From Mycolicibacterium smegmatis (lineage in GTDB: Bacteria; Actinomycetota; Actinomycetes; Mycobacteriales; Mycobacteriaceae): a stretch of 32,000 bases of DNA. The stretch is from NCBI RefSeq assembly GCF_001457595.1, contig NZ_LN831039.1, positions 390,001-422,000 of the forward strand. The letters run 5' to 3'. The notes under the pieces are model-generated. The model ran no database searches, had not been told where the DNA came from, and saw only the letters and a list, made by a program, of their open reading frames with translations. Position numbers and translations under genes: made by a program. How positions within the stretch are numbered: position 1 is the stretch's first letter; each line of letters starts with the position of its first letter. This document shows positions 12,771-30,461 of this stretch, one piece after another.

Positions 12771-13233
12771 ACAGTTGTTGAAACGGTTCAACGAAAAGGG
12801 AATGCCGTACTTTTCGGCTGGGAATTGACGACGGCGCCAAGTTCGCCTCACGGCCACAAAGGGCTCTTGTGATGCGGTATGAGTCGTCACCACGTTGCCA
12901 GTGCCGCCATCTGCGCCGAGGCGAGTCCTCGGCAAAGCGACCACACCGTGCGCTCCCGACATCGCCCTGAGATATCGGCGGGTACCGGCGGTTCGGCGAC
13001 CCATCAGGCGGGAGTGGTGGTTTGAATGGCTCGTCCCCGCTGAAGGTAGGCGTCACATCGTGGTGGACGGGCCTTTTGTGGACCGTACTGTTCGGGTCCG
13101 CTGGAGGGGAGCGGTGTGCACCCAATTGATGGACGGATCGTCACCGTTTGGTCAGAGATGGGCCCTCAGCAAACGCCGATCGATCTTGAGAAAATTCGCT
13201 GCTAGGGTGGTCGCTGGTCACTAGTGCCTGTGA

Positions 13234-13295
13234 ATTTGCTGTCTCATTTATTTGGTCGATGTTTGCTGAGTGAACACGCTGTTGCGTGTTTGCTT
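13234..13295 (+). promoter_or_regulatory. Three phased (A/G)TTTGCT(G/T) motifs, exactly 27 bp apart, in the AT-richer patch upstream of mmpS4
   Basis: TTTGCT occurs at 13235, 13262 and 13289. It lies in a locally low-GC segment about 190-250 bp upstream of the mmpS4 start. Function is inferred. Confidence 0.3.
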
Positions 13296-13480
13296 GCGCG
13301 AGTTATCGTGCGGCGCATACCGATTGCGTATCCGCTGGGCAACGGTCTGATACGCCAGTGCCAGTCATGGTTTACTCTTCAGGACCAGGCTGCGCCCCCC
13401 CGTGGTGCCGCGCGCTGCGATCCCGTCGCAGCAGTGATGTTGGGTGTGGATAGGGGAGGAGATCTACGATTTTTCGGCTC

Positions 13481-13900
13481 GTGAGGCGGCTGTGGATTCC
13501 GCTGTTGGTGATTGCGGTGGTCGCCGTTGGCGGCTTCACCGTCTCGCGGTTGCACAACGTCTTCGGCGCCGAGAAGCGTGTGGCGTATTCAGACACCAAA
13601 GCCACCGACTCCAAGCCCTTCAATCCCAAGAAACTGGTTTACGAGGTTTTCGGTCCTCCCGGCACCGTCGCGAGTATCAGCTACTTCGATGAGAATTCCG
13701 ACCCGCAGTTCGTCGAGGGTGTCAGCCTGCCCTGGGTCCTGGAATTCGACATCAACAAGGCCACCGCCGTCGGAAGCCTCATGGCCCAAGGCGACAGCAG
13801 CAGTATCGGGTGCCGTATCAAAGTTGACGACGAGGTCAAGGCCGAGAAGGTCTCGAATCAGACAAACGCCTTCACCTCCTGCCTGTTGAAGGCCGCATGA
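13481..13900 (+). CDS. mmpS4: MmpS4-family membrane protein
   Basis: [69 protein letters not shown] aligns along its whole length with my recollection of M. tuberculosis MmpS4. The stop overlaps the mmpL4a start (ATGA). Confidence 0.9.
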
Positions 13901-16779
13901 GCGAGACGACAGTGACTCAGGACCAGCAGCGCAGGCCGCGGATCGCCTCGTTCATCCGCCGGTTCTCAGTCCTGATCATCCTGGCCTGGATCGGCGTGGC
14001 GGTCGTGGCGACAGTCGTGATCCCTCCACTCGAAGTCGTCGAGCGTGAGCACTCGGTCTCGCTGAGCCCCGCGGATGCCCCGTCGGTGAAGGCCATGAAA
14101 CAGATGGGCATCCTGTTCGAGGAGTCGAACTCCGAGAGCATCGCCGTCCTGGTCCTCGAGGGACAGGATCGGCTGGGCGACGACGCCCACGCGTACTACG
14201 ACAAGATCATCGACCAGCTCGAAGCTGACACCGAGCACGTCCAGCACGTCCAGGACTTCTGGGGTGACCCGCTGACGGCGGGCGCCGCGGAGAGCGCCGA
14301 CGGCAAGGCTGCCTACGTCCAGCTCAACCTGCACGGCAGCTTCGGCCAGGCAGAGGGCACGGCATCGGTGCGTGCCGTCCAGGACATTGTCAAGAACACT
14401 CCCGCGCCGGAAGGTGTGACGGCATACGTCACAGGACCGGCCGCGATCGTCGCGGATATGGGCCAGAGCGGCAACCGCACGGTCCTGCTCATCACCCTGG
14501 TCACCGTCGGCGTCATCTTCCTGATGCTGCTCCTGCTCTACCGCAGGCTGCTCATCGTGCTGATCCTGTTGGCCACTGTCGCAATCGAGCTGCAGGTGGC
14601 GCGCGGCCTGGTCGCGTTCCTCGCATTGCACGGCATTGTCGGCTTGACCACCTACGTGGTGAACCTGCTCGTTTCGGTCGGTATCGCGGCAGGTACCGAC
14701 TACGGCATCTTCTTCGCTGGCCGCTATCAGGAGGCACGGCAGGCCGGCGAGGACCGGGAACAGGCTTTCTACACCTCGTTCAGCGGTGTGGCGAAGGTCG
14801 TCCTGGCCTCGGGTGCGACGATCGCCGGTGCCATCGCGTGCCTCAGTTTCACCCGGCTGCCCTACTTCCAGCCGCTCGGTATTCCTGGCGCGGTCGGTAT
14901 CGCGGTCGCCGTCGCGGTCGCACTCACTTTGGTTCCGGCCTGTATCGCTGCGACCAACCGTTTCGGCTGGTTCGACCCGAGACGTCTGGTGACCACGCGT
15001 CGTTGGCGGCGTATCGGGACAGCCGTGGTGCGGTGGCCGGCGCCGATCCTCATCGCGTCGATCGCCGTGGCGGTGATCGGCTTGTTGACGCTGCCCGGTT
15101 ACAACCCGAGCTACAGCGACCAGAAGTACATCCCGCAGGACATCCCGGCAAATCAGGGGTACGCGGCAGCGGCACGGCACTTCCCCGAGTCGAAGATGAC
15201 GACGCCGGACATCCTGCTGGTCGAGTCCGATCACGACATGCGGAACTCGGCCGATCTGCTCGTGCTGAACAAGCTGGCGAAAGCGGTCTTCGCGGTTCCC
15301 GGTGTTGCGAACATCCAGTCGGTGACGCGGCCTGAGGGCAAGCCGATCGAACACACGTCGATCCCGTTCATGCTCAGCATGTCCAACGCCAGCCAGCGGC
15401 TGAGCCTGCCATTCCAGCAGCAGCGCATGGAGGACATGCTCAAGCAGGCCGACGAGATGGCGACGACCATCGCGCTGATGCAACGTATGTATGCGTTGAT
15501 GCAGGAGATGGTCGGGATCACGCACCGGACGGTCGAGACGACCCATGAGGTGCACGCCACCATGGGCGAATTGCGCGACAACATCGCTGATTTCGACGAT
15601 TTCTGGCGTCCGCTGCGCAACTACCTCTACTGGGAAAAGCACTGCTACAACATCCCGCTGTGCTGGTCGATCAGATCCATCTTCGATGCGCTCGACGGCG
15701 TCAACGAGGTGACCGACAAGATGGGCGAGTTGGTCGAGAACCTCGATCGCCTCGACGAGTTGATGCCGCAGATGCTCCTGCAGTTCCCGCCCATGATCGC
15801 GACGATGCAGAACACGCGCGCGATGATGCTGACGATGCACGCGACGATGTCCGGCATCTTCTCGCAGATGGACGAGACCACTGAGAACGCGACGGCCATG
15901 GGTAAGGCCTTCGACCAGGCCAACAACGATGATTCGTTCTACCTACCGCCCGAGGTACTCGAGAACGACGATTTCAAACGCGTCATGGAGATCTTCCTGT
16001 CTCCCGACGGCAAGGCCGCGCGCATGTTGATCACCCAGCGCAGCGACCCGGCGACGCCGCAAGGCATTGCGCTCGTCGAACCGATCCGTATCGCGGCCGA
16101 GGAGGCCCTGAAGGGCACACCGCTCGAGAGCGCGAACATCTACCTCGCCGGAACGGCGGCGGGCGTGAAGGATCTGGTCGACGGTTCGAAGATCGACCTG
16201 ATGATCGCCGGTGTCGCCGCGCTCTGCCTGATCTTCATCATCATGCTGATAATGACGCGCAGCTTCGTGGCCGCGCTGGTCATCGTCGGCACGGTGGCTA
16301 TGTCGCTAGGCGCGTCGTTCGGCCTGTCGGTTCTGGTCTGGCAGCACCTTCTCGGCATCCAGATCAACTGGGTCGTGCTGGCGATGTCGGTCATCGTCTT
16401 GTTGGCGGTCGGGTCCGATTACAACCTGCTGCTCGTCTCCCGCATGAAGGAAGAGATCGGCGCAGGACTGAACACCGGCATCATCCGGGCGATGGGTGGG
16501 ACCGGAAAGGTCGTCACCGCAGCAGGTTTGGTGTTCGCGGCCACGATGGCGTCGATGATCGTCAGCGATCTTCTGACCATCGGCCAGGTGGGTACCACGA
16601 TCGGTCTCGGCCTGTTGTTCGACACCCTCATCGTGCGTGCCTTCATGGTCCCGTCCATTGCAGCGCTGCTCGGGCGCTGGTTCTGGTGGCCGCAGCGCGT
16701 GCGGCAGCGCCCGGCGAGCGCCATGCTCCGCCCGATCGGGCCCCGACCGCTCGTTCGTTCGCTGCTGCTGAGGGACTAG
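13897..16779 (+). CDS. mmpL4a: RND-superfamily lipid transporter MmpL4a
   Basis: The 960-aa product has 12 predicted TM stretches in two blocks, the conserved GTDYGIFF and [15 protein letters not shown] proton-relay motifs, and a large soluble insert with a coiled-coil-like region. It is translationally coupled to mmpS4. Confidence 0.9.
16223..16250 (+). repeat. 28-nt stretch identical between mmpL4a and mmpL4b (copy 1)
   Basis: tctgcctgatcttcatcatcatgctgat also occurs at 19138-19165. The two genes are tandem paralogs, and their 3' thirds are highly similar at the nucleotide level. Confidence 0.9.
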
Positions 16780-16789
16780 CGAAACCTGT

Positions 16790-19775
16790 ATGAGCACTGA
16801 GCTGAACACCGAGCAACGGGATCGCCCGTTCGTCGCGCGGGTGGTACGGGCGCTGGCGCCCTTCATCGTTCTGGGATGGCTGATCCTCATCCTCGTGACG
16901 ACACTCGCTGCCGTGGGCGGTGATTGGGCTTCTGCCATCCCAGCGCTCGAAAAGGTGGGCGAGAAGAACTCGGTCTCCCTGATGCCGCAGGACGCCCCGT
17001 CCGCACAAGCGATCAAGCGCATGGGGCAGAAGTTCGAGGAGTCCGACTCCGACAGCTTCGCGATGATCGTGCTGGAGGGCACCGAACCGCTCGGCGAGGA
17101 TGCCCACAACTACTACGCCGACCTGGTCCGTGACCTGCGCGCCGACACGCGTCACATCGAGCACGTCCAGGATCTCTGGGGCGATCGTCTCACTGCGTCG
17201 AGCGCACAGAGCGCCGACGGCAAGGCCTCCTATGTCCAGCTGAATCTGGCAGGCGATCAAGGAACCCCACTGGGTGACGAGTCGGTCGCGGCGGTCCGAG
17301 ATCTCGTCAACCGGAGCAACCCGCCCGAGGGCGTCTCGGTCTACGTCACCGGTGCGACACCGCTGGTTTCCGACCTGCAGCACAGCGGTAACCGCTCGAT
17401 CTTGAAGATCACCGCGGTGACGGTCGTGGTCATCTTCACGATGCTTCTTCTCGTCTATCGATCGGTGATCACGGTTATTTTGCTGTTGATCATGGTGGGG
17501 TTCGAGGTGGCGGCCGCCCGCGGCATCGTGGCCTTCCTCGGTGCCAACGACGTGTTCGTCCTGTCGACATTCGCCGTCAACATGCTGGTGTTCCTCGCGA
17601 TCGCAGCGGGCACGGATTACGGCATCTTTTTCTTCGGCCGCTACCAGGAGGCACGCCAACTCGGCGAGGACCGAGAAACGGCCTACTACAGCATGTATCG
17701 GGGCGTCGCCCCGGTTGTGATGGCATCCGGGCTGACCATCGCGGGTGCGATTTTCTGCCTGACCTTCACGCGGCTTCCTTACTTCCATACAATGGGCGTC
17801 CCGTGCGCCATCGGCATGGCTGTCGCTGTGGCCGCTGCTGTCACGCTCGTGCCAGCAGGTGTCGCCATGGCCAGCAGGTTCGGCTTGCTGGATCCCAAGC
17901 GCAAGATGCGGGTGCGGCGCTGGCGGGGAATCGGTACCGCTATCGTGCGGTGGCCTGCGCCCATCCTGGTCGCGTCGCTGGCCGTCGCACTCGTGGGTCT
18001 GCTGGCGCTGCCCGGCTACCAGACGAGTTACAACGACCGTGACTACATCCCCCCCGGACATCCCGGCGAACGCGGGTTTCGCCGCGGCCGACCGGCACTT
18101 CTCGCAATCACGGATGACGCCCGACATCGTCATGGTCGAAGCGGACCACGACCTGCGGAACCCGGCAGACTTCCTCGTTCTCAACAAAGTTGCCAAGGCG
18201 ATCTTCAAGGTGCGCGGCGTATCTCGTGTCCAGGGCATTACGCGGCCAGAGGGCACGCCGATCGAACGAACGTCGATCCCGTTTCTGCTGAGCCTGCAGA
18301 GCGCCGGACAGGTGCAGGCCACCAACTTCCAGAAACAGCGCATCGACGACATGCTCAAACAGGCCGACGACATGGCGACGATGATCGCTGTGATGAAGCG
18401 GTCCTACGGCGTGATGCTGGAACTCGCCGCGACCACCCATTCGATGGTCGAGAGCACGAAAGAACTACAGAACGTCGCCAAGGATCTGCGCGGCTACCTC
18501 GCGGTCTTCGACGACTTCCTACGTCCGATCCGCAACTACTTCTACTGGGAAGACCACTGCTACAACATCCCCATATGTTGGTCGCTGCGTTCGATTTTCG
18601 ACGCGATGGACAAGGTCGATCACCTCAATGACCAGATCGACATCCTCGTCGAGAACATGGAAGATCTGGACGCCCTGCTGCCCCAGTTGATCGCGCAATT
18701 CCCCGAGATGATCGCCGTCATGGAGAACATGCGGACGATGACTCTCACCACGCACAGCACGTTCTCCGGGATGCTCAAGCAGTTGGACGAACAGACCGAG
18801 GACGTCACCGCGATGGGGCAGGCGTTCGACGCCGCCAAGAATGACGACTCATTCTTCCTGCCACCAGAGGTTTTCGACAACCCGGATTTCAAACGGGCGA
18901 TGACCTCATTCCTGTCGCCCGACGGAAAGGCCGCGCGGTTCATCATCTCCCACAACGGGGATCCGGCCAGCCCGGAGGGAATCGCCAGAGTCGGCCAGAT
19001 CCAGACAGCAGCAGAGGAGGCGCTCAAGGGCACTCCGTTGTCAGGGGCGCAGGTCTATCTGGCCGGTACCGCTCCTACCGCCAAGGACTGGCAGACGGGC
19101 TCCACCTACGACCTGTTGATCGCGGGTATCGCAGCCATCTGCCTGATCTTCATCATCATGCTGATCGTCACCCGCAGCTTCATCGCGGCACTGGTGATCG
19201 TGGGTACTGTCGTGCTCTCGCTGGGCGCATCGTTCGGTGTGTCGGTGCTGCTGTGGCAGTACATTCTGGGCATCCATCTGCACTGGATGGTGCTCGCGAT
19301 GTCGGTCATCATCTTGTTGGCGGTGGGGTCCGACTACAACCTGCTACTGGTCTCCCGCATGAAGGAGGAGATCGGCGCAGGCTTGAACACCGGGATCATC
19401 CGGGCGATGGGTGGCACCGGCAAGGTCGTCACCACGGCCGGCGTGGTGTTCGCGGCGACGATGGCCGCGATGGTGGTCAGCGATCTGCGGATCATCGGTC
19501 AGATCGGCACCACCATCGGCCTCGGCCTGTTGTTCGACACCATGATCGTGCGGTCGTTCATGACACCATCGATCGCGGCGCTGCTCGGGCGTTGGTTCTG
19601 GTGGCCGCAGAGGGTGCGGCCACGTCCCGCGAGTACGCTCCTGCGCCCGTACGGGCCGCGACCGCTGGTGCGCGCACTGCTCGAAGGCCCACCGCCCGGT
19701 GACGAGACCCCCGGTGACCAAGGGGGTCGACCCTCCGACGACGACACACCGATCGGTCCGCTGCGGACCCGGTGA
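16790..19775 (+). pseudogene. mmpL4b: MmpL4b transporter gene interrupted by a +1 frameshift in a C7 tract (18049-18055)
   Basis: ORF 16790-18631 is MmpL-like only up to ..[16 protein letters not shown] and is nonsense afterwards. ORF 17859-19775 becomes MmpL-like exactly from ..[17 protein letters not shown]. The paralog mmpL4a reads [12 protein letters not shown] across this point. Removing one C restores a single ORF of about 994 aa. Confidence 0.85.
19138..19165 (+). repeat. 28-nt stretch identical between mmpL4a and mmpL4b (copy 2)
   Basis: Same 28-mer as 16223-16250. Confidence 0.9.
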
Positions 19776-19779
19776 TGCG

Positions 19780-19825
19780 GAACGGGCCGCAGCGCACTGA
19801 TTGTTCGGCGCGCCGCGACCCGTTC
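19780..19825. terminator. Extended stem-loop between convergent mmpL4b and the TB8.4-like gene (candidate bidirectional terminator)
   Basis: GAACGGGCCGC pairs with GCGACCCGTTC (10 of 11 bp, one C-A mismatch). An inner GCGC/GCGC stem lies within the loop. The structure sits in the 66-bp gap between the two stop codons. Confidence 0.4.
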
Positions 19826-19841
19826 TGCTGCTCTGAAGTCC

Positions 19842-20180
19842 TCAGTACTTGACGCAGCTGGTCAGCATCTGCTGGAACACCGGTAGCGCCACATTGGCGC
19901 CGGGATTGTTCTTGATCTGGTTCAGCAGGTTCACACGCTGGTCGCGGGGTGAAGCCAAGAACACCCTGATGAACTCGATGTTCGCCGGGTACTTGTCGAG
20001 ATACTGAGCGGCCATGGGGTTTTCCGTGCGCACAGCGGTCATCGCCTGGTCGAAGTTGCAAGGCGAGTCGATCAGCGGTGTGACATCCGGTTCAGCTGAC
20101 GCAACTCCGGCCGCTGCGCCCAGCGACAGTGCCGCAGCACCCACGGCGACGCCAAGCCTCGTAAGCGATTTCTTGATCAT
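19842..20180 (-). CDS. Secreted hemophore-related protein, TB8.4 (Rv1174c)/Rv0203 family
   Basis: The start at MIKKSLTRLGVAVGAAALSLGAAAGVASA (signal peptide) is preceded by AAGGAGG. The mature part CNFDQAMTAV..YL..FLASPRDQR..SCVKY parallels TB8.4 (CNYGQVVAAL..YLRNFLAAPPPQR..SCNNY), with both Cys conserved. Confidence 0.8.
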   Translation of the reverse strand: MIKKSLTRLGVAVGAAALSLGAAAGVASAEPDVTPLIDSPCNFDQAMTAVRTENPMAAQYLDKYPANIEFIRVFLASPRDQRVNLLNQIKNNPGANVALPVFQQMLTSCVKY

Positions 20181-20364
20181 GTTGTCCCCTCCTTGAAAAA
20201 ACGATCCATCGAACCCAAGACGTTCAACCAGAAAACGAGGCCTGGCGTTCCACCGACGTGCATCAACTACCACTGACACGTCGGCCTCAAACCTCGCGGG
20301 CTACTACCCATATCTGTGGGCGCATGCCCGGTGTTACAGCAGTATGCCCCTTTCTGTGGGCGGG

Positions 20365-21231
20365 CTACTCTCGATCCAGAAGTTGCAGCAGGTAGTGGCC
20401 GTAGCCGGACTTGAGCAACTCCTTGGCGCGAGTTGCGAGTTGCTCGTCGTCGATGAAACCCGCGCGCCAGGCGATCTCCTCGGGGGCGCCGATCTTCAAT
20501 CCTTGGCGACGCTCGATGGTGCGGACGAAATCACTCGCATCCAACAGAGAGTCGAAGGTGCCGGTATCCAGCCACGCGGTGCCACGCGCGAGCACCTCGA
20601 CCGACAACTCGCCGCGGTCGAGATAGGTCTGGTTTACCTCGGTGATCTCGTACTCCCCACGCGCAGACTTGCTCAGCGACCGCGCTATTTCGATGACGTT
20701 GTTGTCGTAGAAGTACAGTCCCGGCACGGCATAATGGGATTTCGGTGACTTCGGCTTCTCCTCCAACGAAAGAGCAGTGCCGTCAGGACCGAACTCCACC
20801 ACACCGTACGCGGACGGGTTCGCGACCCAATACGCGAAAATGGCTCCGCCGGTGACATTTTGGAATCGCTTCAGGCTCGTTCCAAGGCCGGGGCCGTAGA
20901 AGATGTTGTCGCCGAGCGCAAGTGCGACCGTATCGGTGCCGATGTGGTCCGCGCCGATGACGAAGGCCTGCGCGAGGCCCTCGGGTTCGGCCTGTACGGC
21001 GTACGTAAGGCTGACACCGAACGCGGAACCATCGCCGAGTAGGCGCTGAAACGCCGATGCGTCAGCCGGTGTCGTGATGACGAGGATGTCCCGTATCCCC
21101 GCCATAATCAGCGTGGACAGGGGATAGTAGATCAGAGGTTTGTCGTAGACCGGCAGCAGCTGCTTGCTGACCCCCATGGTGATCGGATGCAGCCGGGTGC
21201 CGGAACCGCCGGCCAGTATTATCCCGCGCAT
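20365..21231 (-). CDS. rmlA: Glucose-1-phosphate thymidylyltransferase
   Basis: [55 protein letters not shown] is the canonical RmlA N-terminus. Length is 288 aa. Confidence 0.95.
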
Positions 21232-21365
21232 ACGTCGTTCCTACCCGACAAAAACTGCGGAGTCGATGAATTCGGCCTCGACGTCGGTGTTGCCGTGAGA
21301 ATGAATCACGTAGCCACTGTATGGCACACGGCGGCGATCGGTCAGACGGTGTGAGGCGAAGGGCC

Positions 21366-22331
21366 TCAGGCCCAGGTGCCTCTTCGGCGATGTGCCATCG
21401 CCACGACCTCCAGGATCGGCCGGACGACAGCCGGTTTGACGAGTTTGTTGAGCAGGCCGTCTTGAAAGTGACGATTGCCTTCGTTCATCACGCGGAAATC
21501 GTGCTCTGCAACGCGGAACTGCTCGTACACGCGATCCAGGGTGTCGGTGTCGATGGGCTCATCTCGCCCCGCTGCCCGCAGAACCGCGTAGACCGTCGAC
21601 AACCAGTCGGTACCGAACCGGTCGATAACCGGTTTCTCGCTGCGTTGCCGTCGGAGGCTGGGCGCGAGGAAATCGTCGACTGCCTGTTCGTCGGGCGGGG
21701 TGAGGTCCACGTTCAACGCGGTGGACACGCGTTTCACCTCGCGGCGCCAGTCATCGATCATGTTCGGGTAGTCGACGACGACCCGGGGCACGTCACGGGT
21801 GTGCCGCTCTGACAGAAGGTTTCCCTTGAGCCATAGTCCCGCCGTCAATTCCGGCGGGGCCTTTGCCGCCGCGGCGAGCGAACTCGCTACCTCCCCGGGA
21901 TGGCGCACAGGGATGACGACCGCGATGTCATATCCCGCCGCGCGGGCGGCCTCGAACCACATGTCGTAGAGAACAACGATCTGGAGGTCCTTGACGACGA
22001 CGACGTCGGATTTCGGCAACTTGGCAATGAATGGTTCGATCTTGGCCATACAGGCCGCCCGCTCCTTGCCGACGTACTGTTCTTCCTCGGTGAGGCGGAG
22101 CGTCGGATCCCACCAGGCGCTCCCGTGGCGGTCGAGTATCGAGCGATTGAGCAGGAGGGATTCCCGCGGTTCCCAGTAGCCGCGTGGATTCGATTTGTCC
22201 GCGCCCATCATCTTGGTGGGTAGCGCGGCCCCGCACAACGACAGAACGCGGGTGAGCGCGGACGATCCGGACCGGCCCATGCCGAGGACGAAGAGGATCA
22301 CTGGACGCGTTCGCGTGCCGTTGCCGGTCAT
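21366..22331 (-). CDS. Sulfotransferase-family protein (PAPS-dependent)
   Basis: The 321-aa product starts at MTGNGTRTRPVILFVLGMGRSGSSALTRVL, a 5'-PSB P-loop-like GxGRSGSS. This is followed by NPRGYWEP and a VIPVRHPGEVASSL segment (3'-PB-like). The N-terminal extension in the ORF track (to 22544) is rejected. Confidence 0.7.
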   Translation of the reverse strand: MTGNGTRTRPVILFVLGMGRSGSSALTRVLSLCGAALPTKMMGADKSNPRGYWEPRESLLLNRSILDRHGSAWWDPTLRLTEEEQYVGKERAACMAKIEPFIAKLPKSDVVVVKDLQIVVLYDMWFEAARAAGYDIAVVIPVRHPGEVASSLAAAAKAPPELTAGLWLKGNLLSERHTRDVPRVVVDYPNMIDDWRREVKRVSTALNVDLTPPDEQAVDDFLAPSLRRQRSEKPVIDRFGTDWLSTVYAVLRAAGRDEPIDTDTLDRVYEQFRVAEHDFRVMNEGNRHFQDGLLNKLVKPAVVRPILEVVAMAHRRRGTWA

Positions 22332-22643
22332 GAGCGGCTTCCCCCGAACGTTGTGGAAGACCCAGCTGGCGCAGCTGCATGACAACTCGTGTGGGTTGTT
22401 CTGATCATGATTCCCCCGGGTCGTAGAGATACTTTGCGGGGCAGTGCGCCGTCGCCGCTGCCGCTCAGACGGTCCAACATTAGGCCAGGTCTTTTGATGC
22501 CACAGAGCCTTTCGGAAATCAACGGCCATGGGGAACGCGGCCACGACCGCGTGTTCATTGCCGTTTCAAACGGTCCCGCGTACCGCACTGTTGTACAGCG
22601 GAACAAACGGCATACGAAAATTCGAGGCTGTAGCGTGTCGGCC

Positions 22644-23739: not shown

Positions 23740-24546
23740 TTGACTGTGACTCACCGCGACAGCCGATCCGCGTATCTCGACCTGCTCCGGCGGGACCTGA
23801 CCCGCTACGGGAGCGACGAGTTGGTCCCCGTGGGGTGGGGTTTGCTGCACCGTCCGCTGTTCAAGCTCGGCAACCTCATGCTCGTACGGAAGCGTGCCTT
23901 CGATTCACGCAAGCGCGACCTGGGCTTGGACTGGCCTGCCGACGCTCTGACGATGATCGGGATGAAGCGGCTCACGAGCCTGCAGGAATGCGTCGAAACC
24001 GTGCTCGCCGAGGACGTCCCCGGCGACCTGGTCGAGTGTGGGGTGTGGCGAGGCGGGGCGTCCATCCTCATGCGCGCGGTGTTGTCCGCGTACGGTGACG
24101 AGACCCGTCGGGTGTGGCTCGCGGATTCCTTCCAGGGTGTGCCCCCGCCGGACGCCGAGAAGTACGCGGCGGACAAGGGCGACCGGCTGCATCGTGCGGC
24201 GCCGATTCTCGCGGTCTCCGAAGCGGACGTCAGGGCCAACTTCGAGCGTTACGGTCTGCTGGACGACCAGGTCCGTTTCCTGCCGGGTTGGTTCAAGGAC
24301 ACTCTGAATGACGCCCCGATCGAACAGATTGCGGTGCTCCGGCTCGATGGTGATCTCTACGAGTCCACGATCCAGGCTCTTGACGGTCTTTACCGCCGCC
24401 TGTCGCCGAGGGGTTTCTGCATCATCGACGACTACCACGCCATCGACGGATGCAAGAAGGCGGTGACGGACTTCCGTGCGGCACACGGGATCTCCGCAGA
24501 CATCGTCGAGATAGACGGGACGGGCGTGCTCTGGCGCAAGGAGTGA
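23740..24546 (+). CDS. TylF/macrocin-type SAM-dependent sugar O-methyltransferase (GPL rhamnosyl O-methyltransferase-like)
   Basis: DWPADALTMIGMKRL..LVECGVWRGGASILMR..VWLADSFQGVP..LRLDGDLYESTIQALDGLYRRLSPRGFCIIDDY are TylF-family hallmarks. The TTG start has AGGAGA 13 nt upstream. Confidence 0.8.
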   Translation: MTVTHRDSRSAYLDLLRRDLTRYGSDELVPVGWGLLHRPLFKLGNLMLVRKRAFDSRKRDLGLDWPADALTMIGMKRLTSLQECVETVLAEDVPGDLVECGVWRGGASILMRAVLSAYGDETRRVWLADSFQGVPPPDAEKYAADKGDRLHRAAPILAVSEADVRANFERYGLLDDQVRFLPGWFKDTLNDAPIEQIAVLRLDGDLYESTIQALDGLYRRLSPRGFCIIDDYHAIDGCKKAVTDFRAAHGISADIVEIDGTGVLWRKE

Positions 24547-24613
24547 GCGCCGAGCCCACCGCGGCAGGCGGCCGGCGGCGCACCCGGATCCTTCTGAAAG
24601 GCTTTGACTCCAG

Positions 24614-25882
24614 ATGAAATTCGTGATGGCCACCTACGGGACCAGAGGTGATATCGAGCCATCTCTGGTCGTAGGCCGCGAGCTGTTGCGCCGCGGGCAT
24701 GACGTGCGAATGGCTGTCGCACCCGACTCTGTGGATTTCGTCGAGGCTGCAGGTGTCCCGGCCGTGCCATTCGGCTTGGACACCCGCACCTGGCTGAACG
24801 TCTATCGCAACTTCTGGAATTCGGTCTTCAAGGAATTCTGGAAGATCAACGAACTGCGGGCGCTGTGGAAAGAGCTGTGGGAGCGCAGCGACGAGAGTTG
24901 GGCGCAGATGAGCGCCACGCTGACCGAGGTGGCGGCCGACGCCGATGTGCTCTTCGCGGGACAGGCCTACCAGGAGACGGCCGCCAACGTCGCTGAACAC
25001 TTCGACATTCCTCTGGTCACGCTTCATCATGTGCCGGTACGGCCGAACGGACGACTGGTGCCGATCTTGCCTCCTCTGCTCGGGCGTACGGCGATGAAAG
25101 GCTTCGATTGGTTCACCTGGTTGCTGAACAAGAAGGTCGAGGACGCGCAGCGGAGGGAACTCGGCTTGCCGAAGGCGCGGATCCCGTCGACCCAGCGGAT
25201 CGGCAACCGTGAGTCGCTGGAGATCCAGGCCTACGACGAGGTGTGTTTCCCGGGCCTGGCCGCCGAATGGGCGAAATGGGGGGAGTTACGCCCCTTCGTC
25301 GGCGCCCTGACGATGGAGCTGTCGACGGAGGTCGACGGCGAGGTCTCGGACTGGATCGCGGCCGGGACGCCCCCGATCTGTTTCGGTTTCGGCAGCATGC
25401 CGGTGGAGTCGCCGAGGGACACCGTGGAGATGATCAGTACGGCGAGTGCGTTGTTGGGCGAGCGCGCCCTGATCTGTGCTGGCTACAGCGATTTCAGCGG
25501 GGTCCCGACTTACGACCATGTGAAAGTCGTGGGCGCGGTGAACTATGCGGCCATCTTCCCGTCGTGTCGTGCGGTGGTGCACCATGGCGGGTCCGGAACC
25601 ACGGCGGCGAGCATGCGTGCGGGCGTCCCGACATTGATCCTCTCCATGGATGCAAACCAGACATTGTGGGGTTCGCAGGTCAAGAAGCTCAAAGTTGGTA
25701 CGACCCGTAGATTCTCCGCGACGACCAAGGATACGTTGATCACCGATCTGCGACGTGTCCTCGATCCGGCGTGCGCCGAGCGTGCGAAAACTCTCGCCCT
25801 GCAGATGACCAAGCCGGCCGACGGTGTTCGGCGCGCGGCGGATCTGGTCGAGAATTTCGCGCGAGTGAGAAGTGCTGCCTGA
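24614..25882 (+). CDS. GT1-family glycosyltransferase (GPL Gtf-type, MGT/UDP-glycosyltransferase fold)
   Basis: N-terminus MKFVMATYGTRGDIEPSLVVGRELLRRGHDV and the C-terminal donor-binding motif VVHHGGSGTTAASMRAGVPTLILSMDANQTLWG. The 422-aa length matches the mycobacterial Gtf1-3 class. Which gtf it is cannot be decided by eye. Confidence 0.85.
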   Translation: MKFVMATYGTRGDIEPSLVVGRELLRRGHDVRMAVAPDSVDFVEAAGVPAVPFGLDTRTWLNVYRNFWNSVFKEFWKINELRALWKELWERSDESWAQMSATLTEVAADADVLFAGQAYQETAANVAEHFDIPLVTLHHVPVRPNGRLVPILPPLLGRTAMKGFDWFTWLLNKKVEDAQRRELGLPKARIPSTQRIGNRESLEIQAYDEVCFPGLAAEWAKWGELRPFVGALTMELSTEVDGEVSDWIAAGTPPICFGFGSMPVESPRDTVEMISTASALLGERALICAGYSDFSGVPTYDHVKVVGAVNYAAIFPSCRAVVHHGGSGTTAASMRAGVPTLILSMDANQTLWGSQVKKLKVGTTRRFSATTKDTLITDLRRVLDPACAERAKTLALQMTKPADGVRRAADLVENFARVRSAA

Positions 25883-25941
25883 TCGGCCCGCCGATGTCGT
25901 CGCGGCCTTTCAGAATGTGGAATCCTGAGCGGAAAAGGTAG

Positions 25942-26943
25942 ATGTCCGAAATCAGCAAAGAATGCCGGATGTGTGGGTCCGCGGGACCACATCGGACGGT
26001 CACCGTCCGCGAGATGTATTACGGCACCCGCGAACTGTTCGAGTACTATGTCTGCGCCGACTGCGAGACGCTGCAGATCGTGGATGTGCTCGAAGGTGAG
26101 GAACTCGCTCGCCACTACCCGCGGAAGTACTACTCGTACAACGCTTCCCAGGGGGCCGGTGTGCTCCAGTGGTTGACCAGACAACGAGATCGTCATGACC
26201 TGGGCGAGGGCACACAGCCAGTCGGTGCCCTCATCGCCGCTCTGCCGCCTGGCATTCGCTCGCTCATCGGCACAAACGACGCGAGCGGTGATGTTGTCGG
26301 GATGCTCGGTCAGTTGGGTGTGGGGCGTGAGGCGCGGATCCTCGATGTCGGATGTGGCGGCGGTGCCCTACTCGACCGGTTGGCGAGAGCGGGCTTCCGT
26401 AACCTGTTCGGGGCCGATCCCTTCGTCGATGCGGACACCACCACATCAATGGGTGTGCCGATCGCCAAACAGTTCATGGAGGACGTGGCCGGCGAGTTCG
26501 ATGTGATCATGTTCAACCATTCGCTCGAACACGTACCGGACCCGGTTTCGACTTTGAAAGCCGCGCGCGCCCGGCTCGCGTCCGGTGGTATCTGTGTGGC
26601 ACGGGTGCCCACGACGTCTTCGGAAGCGTGGGATGTCTACGGGAAGAACTGGTGTCTGATCGATGCGCCCAGGCACACGGTGGTGCCGTCACGGCGTGGA
26701 ATGGCGCGGGCCGCCGAAGCGGTCGGTATGCAATTGGAGCGGACGATCGACGATTCGAATGCGTCCCAGTTCTTCGGCAGCGAGATGTACCGCACCGACA
26801 CCGCACTGACCGAGGCCGGCGGCTTCGGCTATCTCTTCAAGACTTTCGGCGTGAAGCGCGTCTGGGACTGGGAGCGACGTTCGATCGCGCTCAACCGGCA
26901 AGGACGCGGCGATCAGACAGGGTTCATCCTGCGCGCGAGATGA
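25942..26943 (+). CDS. Class I SAM-dependent methyltransferase with N-terminal Cys4 zinc ribbon
   Basis: CRMCGS..x..CADCETLQ zinc ribbon, SAM motif I ILDVGCGGGALLDRLARAGF and motif VIMFNHSLEHVPDP. SD GGAAAAGG lies upstream of the ATG. Confidence 0.75.
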   Translation: MSEISKECRMCGSAGPHRTVTVREMYYGTRELFEYYVCADCETLQIVDVLEGEELARHYPRKYYSYNASQGAGVLQWLTRQRDRHDLGEGTQPVGALIAALPPGIRSLIGTNDASGDVVGMLGQLGVGREARILDVGCGGGALLDRLARAGFRNLFGADPFVDADTTTSMGVPIAKQFMEDVAGEFDVIMFNHSLEHVPDPVSTLKAARARLASGGICVARVPTTSSEAWDVYGKNWCLIDAPRHTVVPSRRGMARAAEAVGMQLERTIDDSNASQFFGSEMYRTDTALTEAGGFGYLFKTFGVKRVWDWERRSIALNRQGRGDQTGFILRAR

Positions 26944-27040
26944 ATTCGGGGTAGGCCCGGATAGGATCCCCCCGGCCGCACGCCCTGTGGCGGGCACGTA
27001 TGTGCACAAACTGGAGAACATCGAAGGAAAGGCCTCGACC

Positions 27041-28123
27041 GTGGCAAAGTCCGTGCTCATCACTGGTGGAGCGGGGTTCATCGGCTCGTTGCTTTCACGT
27101 CGGCTCGTTGAAGCAGGTTACGAAGTCGCGGTGACCGATGTCTTCCTTCCCCAGGTGCACGGGGAGCGACGGAAGGCCGACCTGCCGTCGTCGGTCCGAC
27201 TGTTCACCAGCGACGTCACACATGCTCCTGACTGGGACGCCGTACTGCGGCTGTTCCGCCCGGATCAGGTGGTCCACCTGGCCGCAGAAACGGGTACCGC
27301 ACAGTCCCTTTCGCAAGCGACACGACACGGCTCGGTGAACGTCGTCGGCACCACCCAGCTCCTCGACGCGTTGAGCCGTGCCGACCTGGTGCCGGAGCAG
27401 ATCGTCGTCGCGTCGTCGCGGGCTGTCTACGGTGAAGGCGCATGGCGAAGCGGCACCGAGGTCTTCTACCCGAAACCACGAAGCCATGCCCAGCTGGCAG
27501 CAGGCATCTGGGACCCCGTGGGGCCCACTGATACCCCTGCGGTGCATCTGCCCAGCCGTGCGGGCGTGACCCAGCCTAGGCCGACGAACATCTACGGGGC
27601 CACCAAACTCGCCCAGGAGCACCTCCTGGCGGCTTGGACATCCGCGCATGACAGCGCGCTCAGTGTGTTGAGGCTGCAGAATGCATACGGCCCCGGCCAG
27701 TCCCTCACCAATCCCTACACCGGTGTTGTTCCGTTCTTCGCGCGGGTCTCACGTGAGGGGCGCGCATCGGAGGTGTACGAAGACGGCCTCATCATCCGGG
27801 ACCTCGTCTACATCGACGATGTCATCGACGCGCTCTTCGCCGCGGTGGACAGGCCTGCGGCAGAGTCGCGACACGTGGACATCGGCTCCGGTATCGGCGT
27901 CACGATCCATGATCTGGCGCGCAAGATCGCGGCGGCGTTCGACGCACCTGAGCCTGTGGTGGTCGGCAAGTTCCGCGACGGCGACATCCGGGCCGCGAGT
28001 GCCGACATCGAACCGGCGCAGCGGGAACTGGACTGGGCACCCAAGTGGGGACTAGACGACGGTCTCCGGTCCCTGCTGGACTGGATCAACGAACAACACG
28101 AGCTGTCCGCCCGCAACAACTGA
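27041..28123 (+). CDS. NAD(P)-dependent extended-SDR sugar-nucleotide epimerase/reductase
   Basis: VLITGGAGFIGS Rossmann motif and catalytic YGATK (Y-x3-K). The GTG at 27041 (VAKSVLITGG) with GGAAAGG upstream is preferred over the 26987 start in the ORF track. Confidence 0.8.
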   Translation: MAKSVLITGGAGFIGSLLSRRLVEAGYEVAVTDVFLPQVHGERRKADLPSSVRLFTSDVTHAPDWDAVLRLFRPDQVVHLAAETGTAQSLSQATRHGSVNVVGTTQLLDALSRADLVPEQIVVASSRAVYGEGAWRSGTEVFYPKPRSHAQLAAGIWDPVGPTDTPAVHLPSRAGVTQPRPTNIYGATKLAQEHLLAAWTSAHDSALSVLRLQNAYGPGQSLTNPYTGVVPFFARVSREGRASEVYEDGLIIRDLVYIDDVIDALFAAVDRPAAESRHVDIGSGIGVTIHDLARKIAAAFDAPEPVVVGKFRDGDIRAASADIEPAQRELDWAPKWGLDDGLRSLLDWINEQHELSARNN

Positions 28124-28376
28124 ATGTTCGCGTTGTCGGCCGCTGATGCGCTGACGGCGATCACTCACGGGAAATCGGCTGATCAGTGCCTTGGTTGACA
28201 GGACGAATCAGGTTGCCAGTTTCGACCGCCGCGGGTGGCTTGCCCGGACGATGGCTGTGAGTACGGTTTTTCCTGCGCGAGGCTGGGATTCGCCCTACTA
28301 GGATTCGTCCTGTTTGATATTGAGGATTCGGCAGTGGTAGCTACCGTCGGATTCATCAGGCGGCGCGGGAGGATCC

Positions 28377-29474
28377 GTGCGGATGAAGGCGGGGACGATG
28401 AAGCTGGGGCAGGTTTTCGATCCGCGTAACAACGCGTTGAACGCCTTCCGCCTCGCATTGGCGGCAGAAGTCATTCTCTGGCATTCGTTCCCCATCACGG
28501 GCCGCATGCCCCCCGAACCCGTACTGCAGGTTCTGTTCTCGGTCGGTGTCGACGGATTCTTTGCCATCTCAGGGTTTCTCATCACGCGGAGCTGGTTGAC
28601 CAACCCCCAGATCCGTGACTACCTCCTCGCGCGTGCCCTACGAATCCTCCCCGGCTTCTACGTATGTCTCATCGTGACCGCCTTCGTGTTCGCGCCGCTC
28701 TATCTCGCGACCCACGGCGACTCGGTCGCCAAGGTGTTCGGAACTTCGGCGCCGTTCGAGTTCATTCTCAAGAACAGCGGATTGATCTATATCCAGCGTG
28801 ACATCGCGGGTACGCCCTACGACATCCCCGACCACATGGCCGGCTGGAACGCGTCGCTGTGGTCGTTGATCTGGGAAGTGATGTGCTACATCATCGTTGC
28901 GATCCTGGGGTTGATCGGGCTGGCCAAGCGGCGATGGACATCCGTGGTGATTCTGTGTCTCGCGCTGGTCGGCGCGAACTTGTTCCCGCCGCTCACCTTC
29001 CCCGGCGTGTGGACCATCCCCCAGCTCATGATGCGCTGCGCGATCATGTTCGCGGCCGGCGCGATGATGTATCAGTGGCGTGGCGTCATCCCGGCCCGAT
29101 GGTCCCTGGTTGCGGTGTGTGTGGTGATCGTGTTCGCGGCGGGCCTGATGCCCGACTACCGCATCCTCGGCGGCGTCCCACTGGCCTATGCCGTGATCGT
29201 GGCGGGCTCGCTCATCAAGGCCAAGCGGTTGAACCTCCGCACGGATCTGTCCTACGGCCTCTACATTTACGCCTTCCCGATTCAGCAGTTGCTCGCGGGT
29301 CTGGGGCTGGTGTTCCTCCATCCGGTGGCATTCTTCGCCGTATCCACAGCCGCCACGCTGCCTTTTGCCGCGCTGAGTTGGTTCATCGTCGAGAAGCGCG
29401 CCATGGCCCTCAAACACCGGGCCAGGATGAAGAGGGCGGCGACTTCGCCGCAGGTCGAACCTCAGCCTGGTTGA
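28377..29474 (+). CDS. Acyltransferase-3 family integral membrane O-acyltransferase (GPL Atf-like)
   Basis: N-terminal NALNAFRLALAAEVILWHSFPITG, about 10 TM segments and the overall length fit Acyl_transf_3. The start is ambiguous (GTG 28377, ATG 28383 or ATG 28398; GGGAGGA at 28366-28372). Confidence 0.8.
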   Translation: MRMKAGTMKLGQVFDPRNNALNAFRLALAAEVILWHSFPITGRMPPEPVLQVLFSVGVDGFFAISGFLITRSWLTNPQIRDYLLARALRILPGFYVCLIVTAFVFAPLYLATHGDSVAKVFGTSAPFEFILKNSGLIYIQRDIAGTPYDIPDHMAGWNASLWSLIWEVMCYIIVAILGLIGLAKRRWTSVVILCLALVGANLFPPLTFPGVWTIPQLMMRCAIMFAAGAMMYQWRGVIPARWSLVAVCVVIVFAAGLMPDYRILGGVPLAYAVIVAGSLIKAKRLNLRTDLSYGLYIYAFPIQQLLAGLGLVFLHPVAFFAVSTAATLPFAALSWFIVEKRAMALKHRARMKRAATSPQVEPQPG

Positions 29475-29648
29475 ACCGGACCGCTTCACGTAGGGTTCGC
29501 CGCGCACAGCAATTACCCTGCTCGTCAGAATGCGCTACGAGCGAAAATTTGCGAGCCGGCCATCTCCTCACAGTAGGCTGGCTGTCACCGCGCGGACCGC
29601 TCGTGCACAGCGGCCGGATTCGCTTGAGCAACAGAGGGAATCAATATA

Positions 29649-30461
29649 ATGCCTATGTTCCGGCCGGTTTTCCTGCCGAGGCCGCCGTTCATCTTCCGTC
29701 GGTACCCGTTCAAGGGTCGCAAACAAATGCTGGCCGCACTCGGCTCGGACCTGGCCCGCCCGGTGGTCATGCGACGAGACGATTCTCCTCCCGGGGAAAC
29801 AGCGATCGGGAAGATTTTCGACAAGTCCGAACATATCCACAAGCTGCGTCACTACCTGCCGATCTATGAACGCTTCCTGCCCGGAGCCGAGCGGATGCTT
29901 GAGATCGGCGTCGATCGAGGGGGATCCCTCAAGATGTGGCGAGAATTCCTGCCCGACACCACGATCGTCGGTCTCGACATCAACCAGAACTCCGCGCAGT
30001 TCGACGACCCGGAACGGGATGTCCACGTCCGGATCGGCGATCAGACCGACACGAGCTTCCTCAGCAGCGTCGACGACGAGTTCGGGCCGTTCGACGTGAT
30101 CCTCGACGACGGTGGCCATACGCCCAACCAGATGATCTCTTCGTTCCAGTTCCTGTTCCCGAGACTGAAGCCGGGCGGCGTGTACCTTGTGGAGGACGTG
30201 TGCGCGAACTACTGGATGGGTTATCGCGATCGTCCCGACACGTTCATCGACTTCACGAAAACGCTCATGGATGCCATACACGCGCCATACATGGCGCTGC
30301 GCTCACCATTCGACTTCATGGAGGAGCATCCAGATCGCGTCGACCACGTGCAGGTTCCGTTCGCGGCGACGATTGTCGACAGCATCCAGGTGTTCGACTC
30401 GGTGGTTGTCGTCCATCGGTCGAAGGAGCCGAAGCCGTTGCCGCGGACGGTGTATCGGTAG
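29649..30461 (+). CDS. Class I SAM-dependent sugar O-methyltransferase (TylE/MycE-like)
   Basis: FDKSEHIHKLRHYLPIYERFL..MLEIGVDRGGSLKMWREFLPDTTIVGLDIN..FDVILDDGGHTPNQ..LKPGGVYLVEDV. GAGGGA lies 9 nt upstream of the ATG at 29649. Confidence 0.75.
   Translation: MPMFRPVFLPRPPFIFRRYPFKGRKQMLAALGSDLARPVVMRRDDSPPGETAIGKIFDKSEHIHKLRHYLPIYERFLPGAERMLEIGVDRGGSLKMWREFLPDTTIVGLDINQNSAQFDDPERDVHVRIGDQTDTSFLSSVDDEFGPFDVILDDGGHTPNQMISSFQFLFPRLKPGGVYLVEDVCANYWMGYRDRPDTFIDFTKTLMDAIHAPYMALRSPFDFMEEHPDRVDHVQVPFAATIVDSIQVFDSVVVVHRSKEPKPLPRTVYR

What the first reader, a model, noticed from the sequence alone, without database searches (positions are those of the whole stretch)
18041..18060. mmpL4b (GPL exporter) is split by a single-C insertion in a C7 homopolymer
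Seen in sequence: codons read gac tac atc ccc ccc gga.. across a run of seven C (18049-18055). MmpL-like translation stops at ..DYIPP in frame 1 and resumes at [10 protein letters not shown] in the +1 frame. The tandem paralog mmpL4a reads [12 protein letters not shown], so a C6 tract would give one intact protein of about 994 aa.

Established knowledge: in M. abscessus, smooth-to-rough conversion has been traced to small indels in GPL genes, including mmpL4b and the mps genes. In M. smegmatis, loss of MmpL4 function abolishes surface GPL, sliding motility and biofilm formation.

Inference: this strain may be a GPL-export-deficient (rough) variant, or the C-tract may act as a reversible slippage switch. 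A homopolymer sequencing error is the trivial alternative.
Basis: partly seen in the sequence, partly recalled or inferred. Interest (0 to 1): 0.75.

Follow-up and report, generated by a model that had tools for sequence, protein, structure and literature searches.

The report
Frameshifted GPL exporter gene mmpL4b
One extra C in a run of cytosines breaks the lipid-export gene mmpL4b in this Mycolicibacterium smegmatis strain; the change is real, because otherwise identical cultures carry either the broken or the intact form, but it is a familiar kind of mutation.

Summary
Window 18049-18055 is a C7 run, and it shifts the frame of an MmpL gene after codon 422. Deleting one C gives a 994-aa protein identical to the intact MmpL4b annotated in three complete M. 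smegmatis genomes.

The gene sits in a glycopeptidolipid (GPL) locus: mmpS4, mmpL4a, mmpL4b, then an Rv1174c-like gene and rmlA on the other strand, then gtf, rmt and atf genes.

Sequencing error is very unlikely.
- C7 recurs in two other NCBI assemblies and in a Logan short-read contig seen in at least 20 runs.
- It also matches the 553-aa fragment annotated on a 6.98-Mb contig, probably NCTC 8159.
- C6 occurs in CP082846.1, which is identical to the window over 22,985 bases apart from that one C, and in at least 13 other read sets.
- A second C7 run 4.6 kb away never varies.

C6 is ancestral and young. One synonymous CCG-to-CCC change created it, and no relative has the run.

Best reading: slipped-strand +1 insertion that inactivates MmpL4b, with predicted loss of surface GPL. 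A bidirectional switch is possible but not shown. This is a new member of a known kind, mainly relevant to laboratories that use this strain lineage as wild type.

The parts
13481..13900 (+). mmpS4 (139 aa), first gene of the mmpS4-mmpL4a-mmpL4b unit
   Evidence: Called gene carrying PF05423 Mycobact_memb in L081, L082 and L085. The gene order matches Ripoll 2007, Table 1.
13897..16779 (+). mmpL4a (960 aa), intact tandem paralogue
   Evidence: TIGR00833 MMPL, 1064 bits. The identical protein is on 12 contigs. It is 73% nucleotide-identical to mmpL4b.
16790..18055 (+). mmpL4b codons 1-422 in the original frame: TM1, periplasmic domain 1, TM2-TM7
   Evidence: Translation. PF03176 MMPL covers residues 64-392, E = 1.5e-120. 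Hydropathy peaks up to residues 389-407.
18049..18055 (+). C7 homopolymer; the extra C is the frameshifting lesion (the intact allele has C6, reading ATC CCC CCG GAC)
   Evidence: C6 or C7 state read in 17 related loci.
18056..18631 (+). Out-of-frame tail of the truncated product: 191 aberrant codons and a stop
   Evidence: The tail is rich in Arg, Pro and Gly and has no family match beyond residue 392.
18057..19775 (+). mmpL4b codons 423-994 in the +1 frame: periplasmic domain 2, TM8-TM12, C-terminal tail. These are no longer translated from the gene's own start.
   Evidence: Identical to residues 423-994 of P0123. PF03176 MMPL, E = 6.5e-108.
18114..19775 (+). 553-aa fragment from the first in-frame ATG; this is how one public annotation calls the remnant
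   Evidence: Equals P0124 / CKG91824.1 on a 6,983,267-base contig and the gene called on Logan contig L084.
19842..20180 (-). Rv1174c-like, hemophore-related gene (112 aa), convergent with mmpL4b; because of it the frameshift has no polar effect downstream
   Evidence: TIGR04529, E = 5.8e-12. Locus order in Ripoll 2007.
20365..21231 (-). rmlA (288 aa), GPL sugar activation
   Evidence: TIGR01207 rmlA, 478 bits, above the cut-off.
23746..30461 (+). GPL tailoring genes: TylF-type methyltransferase, GT28 glycosyltransferase, methyltransferase, epimerase/dehydratase, Acyl_transf_3 acetyltransferase, methyltransferase
   Evidence: Pfam families on the called genes. All are identical to CP082846.1.

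Best explanation
A genuine slipped-strand +1 C insertion (C6 to C7) has inactivated mmpL4b, the last gene of the mmpS4-mmpL4a-mmpL4b export unit of the GPL locus. It occurred in one sub-lineage of a single M. smegmatis clone, probably the NCTC 8159 type-strain lineage.

Shown here:
- the lesion itself;
- its presence in several independent data sets;
- the intact C6 allele in otherwise identical DNA;
- C6 as the ancestral state.

Inferred:
- The product is cut 15 residues after TM7. It keeps TM1-TM7 and periplasmic domain 1, followed by a 191-residue nonsense tail.
- The second periplasmic domain and TM8-TM12 are not made. If they were made from an internal ATG, they would lack the TM7 anchor needed to place domain 2 in the periplasm.
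- The transporter should therefore be dead. Because MmpL4a and MmpL4b are not redundant, GPL should not reach the surface, giving a rough, non-sliding phenotype.

The tract is an accidental hot spot rather than an evolved switch. One synonymous CCG-to-CCC change made the C6 run.
For: Lesion and repair. The repaired protein is identical to P0123.

C7 is seen in:
- the window;
- GCA_029221955.1 (L081) and GCA_029222015.1 (L091);
- the Logan contig of SRR32024582, present in at least 20 samples;
- the 553-aa remnant CKG91824.1.

C6 with no other difference is seen in:
- CP082846.1 over 22,985 bases (L085);
- SRR32024592 (10 samples) and SRR32024526;
- SRR16263436, SRR17125536 and ERZ27256335.

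C6 is also present in diverged strains: CP089233.1, ERR736848 and ERZ27256373. This makes C6 ancestral.

Six 0.2-1 Mb draft contigs and two of five contigs above 1 Mb carry the identical MmpL4a but not P0123.

Control: the C7 run at 13395-13401 is C7 in all five assemblies checked.

Tract origin: M. goodii X7B reads ATC CCG CCG, MKD8 reads ATC CCG GGT, and none of 66 homologous sites in other species has a run of six or more C.

Topology: hydropathy, Pfam halves, and an end-to-end alignment to the solved M. tuberculosis MmpL4 structure 9syt.

Function from the literature:
- The locus order matches the M. smegmatis GPL locus (PMC1885439).
- CRISPRi knock-down of mmpL4b in M. smegmatis nearly abolishes GPL and gives a rough-like morphotype (PMC11848015).
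- In M. abscessus a 1-nt deletion in mmpL4b underlies a rough variant, and 4a and 4b are not redundant (PMC5996870).
Against: - No phenotype or lipid data exist for any C7 strain.
- Esteban 2008 reported sliding motility for their ATCC 19420 stock (PMC2588597). The tract state of that stock is unknown, and I have not proved that the window is the type strain.
- I saw assemblies, not raw reads.
- The published functional evidence comes from other M. smegmatis alleles and from M. abscessus. The only other M. smegmatis allele I could compare, the MKD8-type P0003, is 86% identical. The function is therefore transferred by orthology and synteny.
- A low level of full-length protein from ribosomal or transcriptional slippage on the C run cannot be excluded.
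Confidence: 0.8

Rival explanations
1. Bidirectional phase variation. The C6/C7 tract would switch GPL export on and off heritably and reversibly at an appreciable rate, as the 7C tract of M. tuberculosis glpK does.
For: - Both lengths occur in DNA that is otherwise identical.
- Runs with neighbouring SRA numbers, presumably one project, split into at least 20 C7 samples and 11 C6 samples.
- Reversible homopolymer frameshifts are documented in mycobacteria, which lack recognisable mismatch repair (bioRxiv 10.1101/717272; PMC10334774).
Against: - The direction of change is not known. C6 samples may simply retain the ancestral state.
- Only two lengths are seen, with no C5, C8 or compensating scars.
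- The tract is short and young, and is absent from all relatives, so nothing suggests selection for mutability.
- In 37 laboratory-evolved NCTC 8159 lines, no change at an MMPL pseudogene was listed, although another C run changed in 7 lines.
Confidence: 0.25
2. Homopolymer sequencing or assembly error. The strain would really carry C6 and an intact gene.
For: - Homopolymer miscalls are common in long-read assemblies.
- At least one C7 record, the 6.98-Mb contig, may come from a long-read project (from memory, not checked).
Against: - The same C7 is in two draft assemblies and in a de Bruijn contig recovered from at least 20 read sets.
- Sister runs give C6.
- The C7 run at 13395-13401 is never miscalled in the same assemblies.
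Confidence: 0.04
3. Recoding rescues the gene. A +1 ribosomal slip of tRNA-Pro on CCC-C, or RNA polymerase slippage on the run, would restore the frame often enough to give functional MmpL4b. A slip from 18050-18052 to 18051-18053 would produce exactly the wild-type I-P-P-D sequence.
For: - The sequence allows perfect re-pairing on the run.
- The next zero-frame codon, GGA, is the rarest Gly codon here, at 8% of Gly codons.
- CCC-N sites are known to be prone to +1 slippage (own knowledge, not checked here).
Against: - There is no in-frame stop, no Shine-Dalgarno-like stimulator and no unusual RNA structure (z = 0.36).
- The frameshift is absent from all orthologues and from sister cultures. 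It is therefore a mutation, not a conserved recoding site.
- Spontaneous slippage is expected at the per-cent level or below.
Confidence: 0.05
4. The two pieces work together as a split transporter.
For: Each piece carries one complete Pfam MMPL half.
Against: - The cut lies after TM7, not between the repeats, so the C-terminal piece starts with a periplasmic domain and has no anchor.
- No Shine-Dalgarno-like sequence precedes ATG 18114.
- The N-terminal piece drags a 191-residue nonsense tail.
Confidence: 0.02

Closest known systems
Smooth-to-rough variants of Mycobacterium abscessus caused by small indels in GPL genes (mmpL4b, mps1, mps2; Pawlik 2013 as summarised in PMC5996870)
   Same: - The orthologous gene in the same locus position is hit.
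- The lesion is a single-nucleotide frameshift.
- Isogenic pairs differ only at that site.
- The predicted outcome is loss of surface GPL.
   Different: - The species is a saprophytic M. smegmatis lineage.
- The lesion is an insertion in a C run rather than a deletion.
- No morphotype or lipid data exist here.
- It probably arose in culture-collection or laboratory stocks rather than during infection.
Homopolymer-tract phase variation in M. tuberculosis glpK (7C tract; bioRxiv 10.1101/717272, PMC6667613, PMC10334774)
   Same: - A cytosine run lies inside an ORF.
- A +1 C frameshift inactivates the gene.
- Both lengths are found among closely related cultures.
- Mycobacteria lack canonical mismatch repair.
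   Different: - In glpK the in-frame state is 7C and reversion was measured at about 1e-2. Here the in-frame state is 6C and no reversion has been measured.
- The mmpL4b tract is lineage-specific and only one synonymous change old.
M. smegmatis mmpL4a/mmpL4b (tmtpB/tmtpC) transposon and CRISPRi mutants (Recht 2000, as cited in PMC11848015)
   Same: Loss of the same transporter in the same species. It abolishes extractable GPL and changes colony morphology.
   Different: - Those are engineered lesions in other M. smegmatis strain backgrounds; the one other M. smegmatis allele I compared (MKD8-type P0003) is 86% identical to this protein.
- This one is a spontaneous natural allele.

Membership tests
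MmpL family RND transporter (PF03176 / TIGR00833) | Two MMPL half-modules and about 12 transmembrane helices with two large periplasmic loops | tested here: met
Pfam MMPL matches both pieces. Hydropathy peaks. End-to-end alignment to solved MmpL4 structures 9syt/9syj.
MmpL family RND transporter (PF03176 / TIGR00833) | One uninterrupted reading frame | tested here: not met
   The C7 run shifts the frame after codon 422. NCBI assemblies with C7 have no protein called there.
mmpL4b of the GPL locus | Third gene of mmpS4-mmpL4a-mmpL4b, followed by Rv1174c-like and rmlA | tested here: met
   Gene order in the window and in L081, L085, L099 and L100 matches Table 1 of Ripoll 2007. rmlA reaches its equivalog cut-off.
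mmpL4b of the GPL locus | Linked glycosyltransferase, rhamnose/lipid methyltransferase and acetyltransferase genes | tested here: met
   GT28, TylF/Methyltransf_24, epimerase and Acyl_transf_3 genes at 23746-31488.
mmpL4b of the GPL locus | Linked mbtH-mps1-mps2-gap peptide synthetase genes | not testable with these tools
   These genes would lie beyond the end of the 32-kb window and were not fetched.
mmpL4b of the GPL locus | Required for GPL at the cell surface | not testable with these tools
   Known only by transfer from other M. smegmatis strains and from M. abscessus.
Homopolymer-tract phase-variable (contingency) gene | Repeat tract inside the ORF whose length sets the reading frame | tested here: met
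   C6 is in frame and C7 is out of frame.
Homopolymer-tract phase-variable (contingency) gene | Tract length differs among members of one clone | tested here: met
   There are zero other differences over 22,985 bases (CP082846.1) and over 3-7 kb in five read-set assemblies.
Homopolymer-tract phase-variable (contingency) gene | Switching observed in both directions at an elevated rate | not testable with these tools
   This needs pedigrees or fluctuation tests. The only pedigree data found, 37 evolved lines, lists no change there.
Homopolymer-tract phase-variable (contingency) gene | Tract maintained across related strains or species | tested here: not met
   No run of six or more C at 66 homologous sites. 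M. goodii X7B and MKD8 have interrupted codons.
Programmed +1 ribosomal frameshift site (prfB-like) | Frameshift conserved in orthologues, with a stimulator (in-frame stop or hungry codon plus an upstream SD-like element) | tested here: not met
   Orthologues and sister cultures are in frame. There is no stop within 191 codons. The RNA fold is unremarkable.

The most novel reading that the evidence does not exclude
The C6/C7 run is a working two-way switch. Cultures of this M. smegmatis clone would flip GPL export, and with it the smooth or rough surface, sliding and aggregation, by gaining and losing one C. The mixture of C6 and C7 among runs of one sequencing project would reflect repeated switching or selection on it. 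This would be a naturally reversible GPL morphotype switch in a tractable model species, whereas the M. abscessus transition is generally treated as irreversible.
Probability: 0.2. Interest if true: 0.55.

Novelty: new member of a known kind. Interest (0 to 1): 0.3.

Why it matters
**Practical.** The C7 allele appears to be carried by the NCTC 8159 type-strain reference record and by most public assemblies that share its MmpL4a. At least one near-identical complete genome is intact.
- Laboratories using this lineage as wild-type M. smegmatis may unknowingly work with a GPL-export mutant or with a mixed stock.
- This would affect drug-susceptibility, biofilm, aggregation and phage experiments.
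- Comparisons between stocks could be confounded.

**Biological.**
- It adds a spontaneous, isogenic on/off pair for MmpL4b in a fast-growing model species.
- It shows how a single synonymous change can create a frameshift hot spot in a mismatch-repair-poor genome.

It does not reveal a new mechanism.

Tried and rejected
- **Genome-collection scan.** It returned only relatives of at most 80% identity, not the source species. It was still useful as an orthologue panel.
- **Exact look-ups.** Neither the 613-aa N-terminal product nor P0001 was on record.
- **Separating the NCBI contigs.** I shortened the flank to try to split the contigs into C6 and C7 groups. The tool still merged 11 of them. 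The split of 3 intact to 8 not intact is therefore inferred from which contig size classes carry P0123.
- **Metagenome DNA scans.** Two scans for the tract with either length found nothing.
- **Literature searches by accession.** Searches by assembly, contig and run accession found nothing.
- **Literature searches by topic.** Searches for M. smegmatis with mmpL4b, or ATCC 19420 with GPL, found no description of this allele.
- **Maeda 2021 mutation table.** I read it in full. The 'mmpL4' entries there (AT701_RS18505, I112V and T292A) do not fit either gene of this locus.
- **Regulatory signals.** Promoter and terminator scans were at chance level.
- **RNA structure.** Folding around the tract gave z = 0.36, so I dropped a structured recoding signal.
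- **Gene conversion.** I rejected conversion from mmpL4a, because that gene reads CCG CAG at the site (pattern).
Full report
**1. The observation**

The window reads gac tac atc ccc ccc gga cat at 18041-18061. It has exactly seven C at 18049-18055.

- An ORF starting at ATG 16790 encodes MmpL sequence up to ..[13 protein letters not shown] (codon 422, ending at 18055).
- Contrary to the finding's wording, translation does not stop there. It continues out of frame for 191 Arg/Pro/Gly-rich codons to a stop at 18629-18631.
- The MmpL sequence continues in the +1 frame from GAC 18057 (DIPANAGF...) to the stop at 19775.
- Pfam MMPL matches both pieces, with E = 1.5e-120 and 6.5e-108.
- Removing one C gives a single 994-aa ORF.
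- The tandem paralogue at 13897-16779 (960 aa) reads [12 protein letters not shown] at the same place.

**2. Organism and locus**

The repaired protein is identical to P0123. That protein is annotated as an RND/MMPL family transporter of Mycolicibacterium smegmatis in three complete genomes (UAK52657.1, UGT72588.1, UGU29801.1).

- M. goodii proteins fall in the same 90% cluster.
- The M. smegmatis MKD8-type allele (P0003, CP027541.1) is only 86% identical.

The gene order in the window is:

- mmpS4 (13481-13900);
- mmpL4a;
- the broken mmpL4b;
- a convergent hemophore-related Rv1174c-like gene (19842-20180, minus strand);
- rmlA (20365-21231, minus strand; TIGR01207 above its cut-off);
- TylF-type and other methyltransferases, a GT28 glycosyltransferase, an epimerase and an Acyl_transf_3 acetyltransferase.

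This is the order given for the M. smegmatis GPL locus by Ripoll et al. 2007 (PMC1885439). The mbtH-mps1-mps2-gap genes would lie beyond the window and were not checked. Because the next gene is convergent, the frameshift can affect only MmpL4b itself.

**3. Real allele or sequencing error**

I read the tract in 17 loci fetched by exact-protein look-ups (tract calls in 10, 19, 26).

C7 is found in:

- GCA_029221955.1 (L081, 100% identical to the window over 22,883 bases);
- GCA_029222015.1 (L091);
- the Logan assembly of SRR32024582 (L084/L095), whose contig is reported in 20 or more samples.

The 553-aa remnant that starts at ATG 18114 is annotated as CKG91824.1 on a 6,983,267-base contig. 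I take this contig to be the NCTC 8159 record LN831039. The grounds are the accession style, the contig size and the coordinates used by Maeda et al. 2021. This identification is not verified.

C6 with no other difference from the window is found in:

- CP082846.1 (L085, 22,985 bases);
- SRR32024592 (contig in 10 samples);
- SRR32024526;
- SRR16263436;
- SRR17125536;
- ERZ27256335.

C6 also occurs in a near-identical metagenome contig (ERZ27256373, three other differences). It occurs as well in diverged strains (CP089233.1, ERR736848).

Contig size classes give a further count.

- Six 0.2-1 Mb contigs and five contigs above 1 Mb carry the identical MmpL4a.
- Only three contigs above 1 Mb, and no draft contig, carry the intact P0123.
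- About 8 of 11 NCBI contigs therefore lack the intact gene. This count is inferred; two of the eight were read directly.

An internal control supports the calls. The other C7 run of the window (13395-13401, about 80 nt upstream of mmpS4) is C7 in all five assemblies examined, including the diverged one. Apart from the mmpL4b run, CP082846.1 shows no difference from the window at all.

A random or systematic homopolymer error cannot explain this pattern. I put the artefact explanation at about 4%.

**4. Which state is ancestral, and how old is the tract**

C6 is present in three backgrounds and C7 in one, so C7 is derived.

- M. goodii X7B reads ATC CCG CCG GAC at the site.
- MKD8 reads ATC CCG GGT GAC.
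- This lineage reads ATC CCC CCG GAC.

A single synonymous CCG-to-CCC change therefore created the uninterrupted C6 run. At 66 homologous mmpL4a/b sites from other mycobacteria, the residue after the conserved Pro is K, Q, G, P, A, T and others. No site has a run of six or more C. The tract is a young accident, not a conserved feature.

**5. Predicted consequence**

The repaired protein aligns end to end with solved M. tuberculosis MmpL4 structures (9syt, 9syj).

- Hydropathy places helices at about 25-43, 204-354 (five helices) and 389-407.
- After a long polar stretch, further helices lie at 775-930.
- This is the RND plan of TM1, loop 1, TM2-6, TM7, loop 2, TM8-12. The plan itself is from established knowledge of MmpL3/MmpL4 structures.

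The frame breaks 15 residues after TM7. The product keeps TM1-TM7 and loop 1, then a 191-residue nonsense tail. Loop 2 and TM8-TM12 are lost.

A restart at ATG 18114 would give a piece that begins with a periplasmic domain but has no anchor. No Shine-Dalgarno-like sequence precedes that ATG. I therefore infer a null allele.

Published work links MmpL4b to GPL:

- CRISPRi repression of mmpL4b in M. smegmatis almost abolishes extractable GPL and gives a rough-like colony (PMC11848015).
- In M. abscessus a one-nucleotide deletion in mmpL4b underlies a rough variant.
- Point mutants show that MmpL4a and MmpL4b are not redundant (PMC5996870).

The prediction for C7 strains is no surface GPL, rough colonies and no sliding. 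This could not be tested here.

One report that ATCC 19420 slides (PMC2588597) neither supports nor refutes the prediction. The tract state of that stock is unknown.

**6. Switch or one-off mutation**

Both lengths occur within one clone. Runs with neighbouring SRA numbers split into at least 20 C7 and 11 C6 samples.

This fits three scenarios: two founder stocks, repeated forward mutation, or reversion. I could not find the project or a paper.

Mycobacteria show frequent, reversible homopolymer frameshifts. The best known is the 7C tract of glpK (bioRxiv 10.1101/717272; PMC10334774).

Several points argue against a fast switch here:

- The tract is short and not conserved.
- Only two lengths are seen.
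- In 37 drug-evolved lines of NCTC 8159, no change at an MMPL pseudogene is listed, although a (C)5-to-6 change in a taurine dioxygenase pseudogene recurs in seven lines.

I rate a true two-way switch at about 0.2-0.25.

**7. Recoding**

A +1 slip of tRNA-Pro from CCC (18050-52) to CCC (18051-53) would re-pair perfectly and yield exactly I-P-P-D. The next zero-frame codon, GGA, is the rarest Gly codon in the window's genes, at 8%.

However:

- There is no in-frame stop for 191 codons.
- There is no SD-like element.
- The local RNA fold is ordinary (z = 0.36).
- The frameshift is absent from orthologues and sister cultures.

At most this gives a trace of leaky full-length protein. It is not a programmed site.

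**8. Comparison with what is known, and verdict**

Mechanistically this is a slipped-strand frameshift in a homopolymer, like glpK in M. tuberculosis. By gene and predicted phenotype it is the counterpart of the GPL-locus indels behind smooth-to-rough conversion in M. abscessus.

- It meets the tests for an MmpL gene and for mmpL4b by position.
- It meets two of four tests for a phase-variable gene: tract in the ORF, and length polymorphism within a clone.
- It fails the test of tract conservation.
- It leaves the test of two-way switching open.

No publication describing this allele was found. NCBI annotation calls no protein at this position in the C7 assemblies.

It is a new member of a known kind. 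Its interest is modest and chiefly practical, for users of this strain lineage.

Noticed in passing
window 5000-13400 versus 13400-29775 (compared with L082/L086, CP089233.1): About 200 differences from CP089233.1 are confined to 5-13.4 kb, reaching about 5% per kb over the nitrile hydratase genes. The GPL locus from 13.4 kb onward has only 8 differences. This is a sharp mosaic boundary just upstream of mmpS4, as expected from recombination between strains.
   Followed up: partly
window 16790-19775; P0003 (L100, CP027541.1); M. goodii cluster members P0121-P0128: MmpL4b of this M. smegmatis lineage clusters at 90% or more with M. goodii proteins. It is only 86% identical to the MKD8-type M. 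smegmatis allele. The GPL export genes may therefore have a different ancestry from the rest of the genome.
   Followed up: partly
window 13395-13401: A second C7 run lies about 80 nt upstream of the mmpS4 start, in the likely leader or promoter region of the export operon. It is invariant in five assemblies. I used it as a control but did not examine it for any regulatory role.
   Followed up: partly
outside the window: NZ_LN831039 position 218917 (AT701_RS00960), Table S2 of PMC8302736: A (C)5-to-6 insertion in a taurine dioxygenase pseudogene recurs in 7 of 37 independently evolved NCTC 8159 lines. It is either a second unstable C run that restores a frame or heterogeneity in the parent stock.
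   Followed up: no
L097 (Logan SRR17125536), contig start = window 18033: This contig begins 16 nt before the tract, whereas sister contigs start at 14247. It may be an assembly-graph break caused by mixed C6 and C7 reads in that sample. This cannot be decided without the reads.
   Followed up: no
window 21366-22331 (-) and 22644-23435 (+): Two GPL-locus genes are of unclear role. A 321-aa ORF has no family match; its 325-aa MKD8 counterpart has a faint Sulfotransfer_3 hit. A 263-aa protein belongs to the SfLAP family. In position they replace gtf3 of the published M. smegmatis locus order.
   Followed up: no
window 11135-12770: A nitrile hydratase cluster (beta subunit, alpha subunit and a small NHase_beta_N-like accessory gene) with an AraC/DJ-1 regulator at 10045-11067 lies directly upstream of the GPL locus. 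The arrangement is conserved in MKD8.
   Followed up: no
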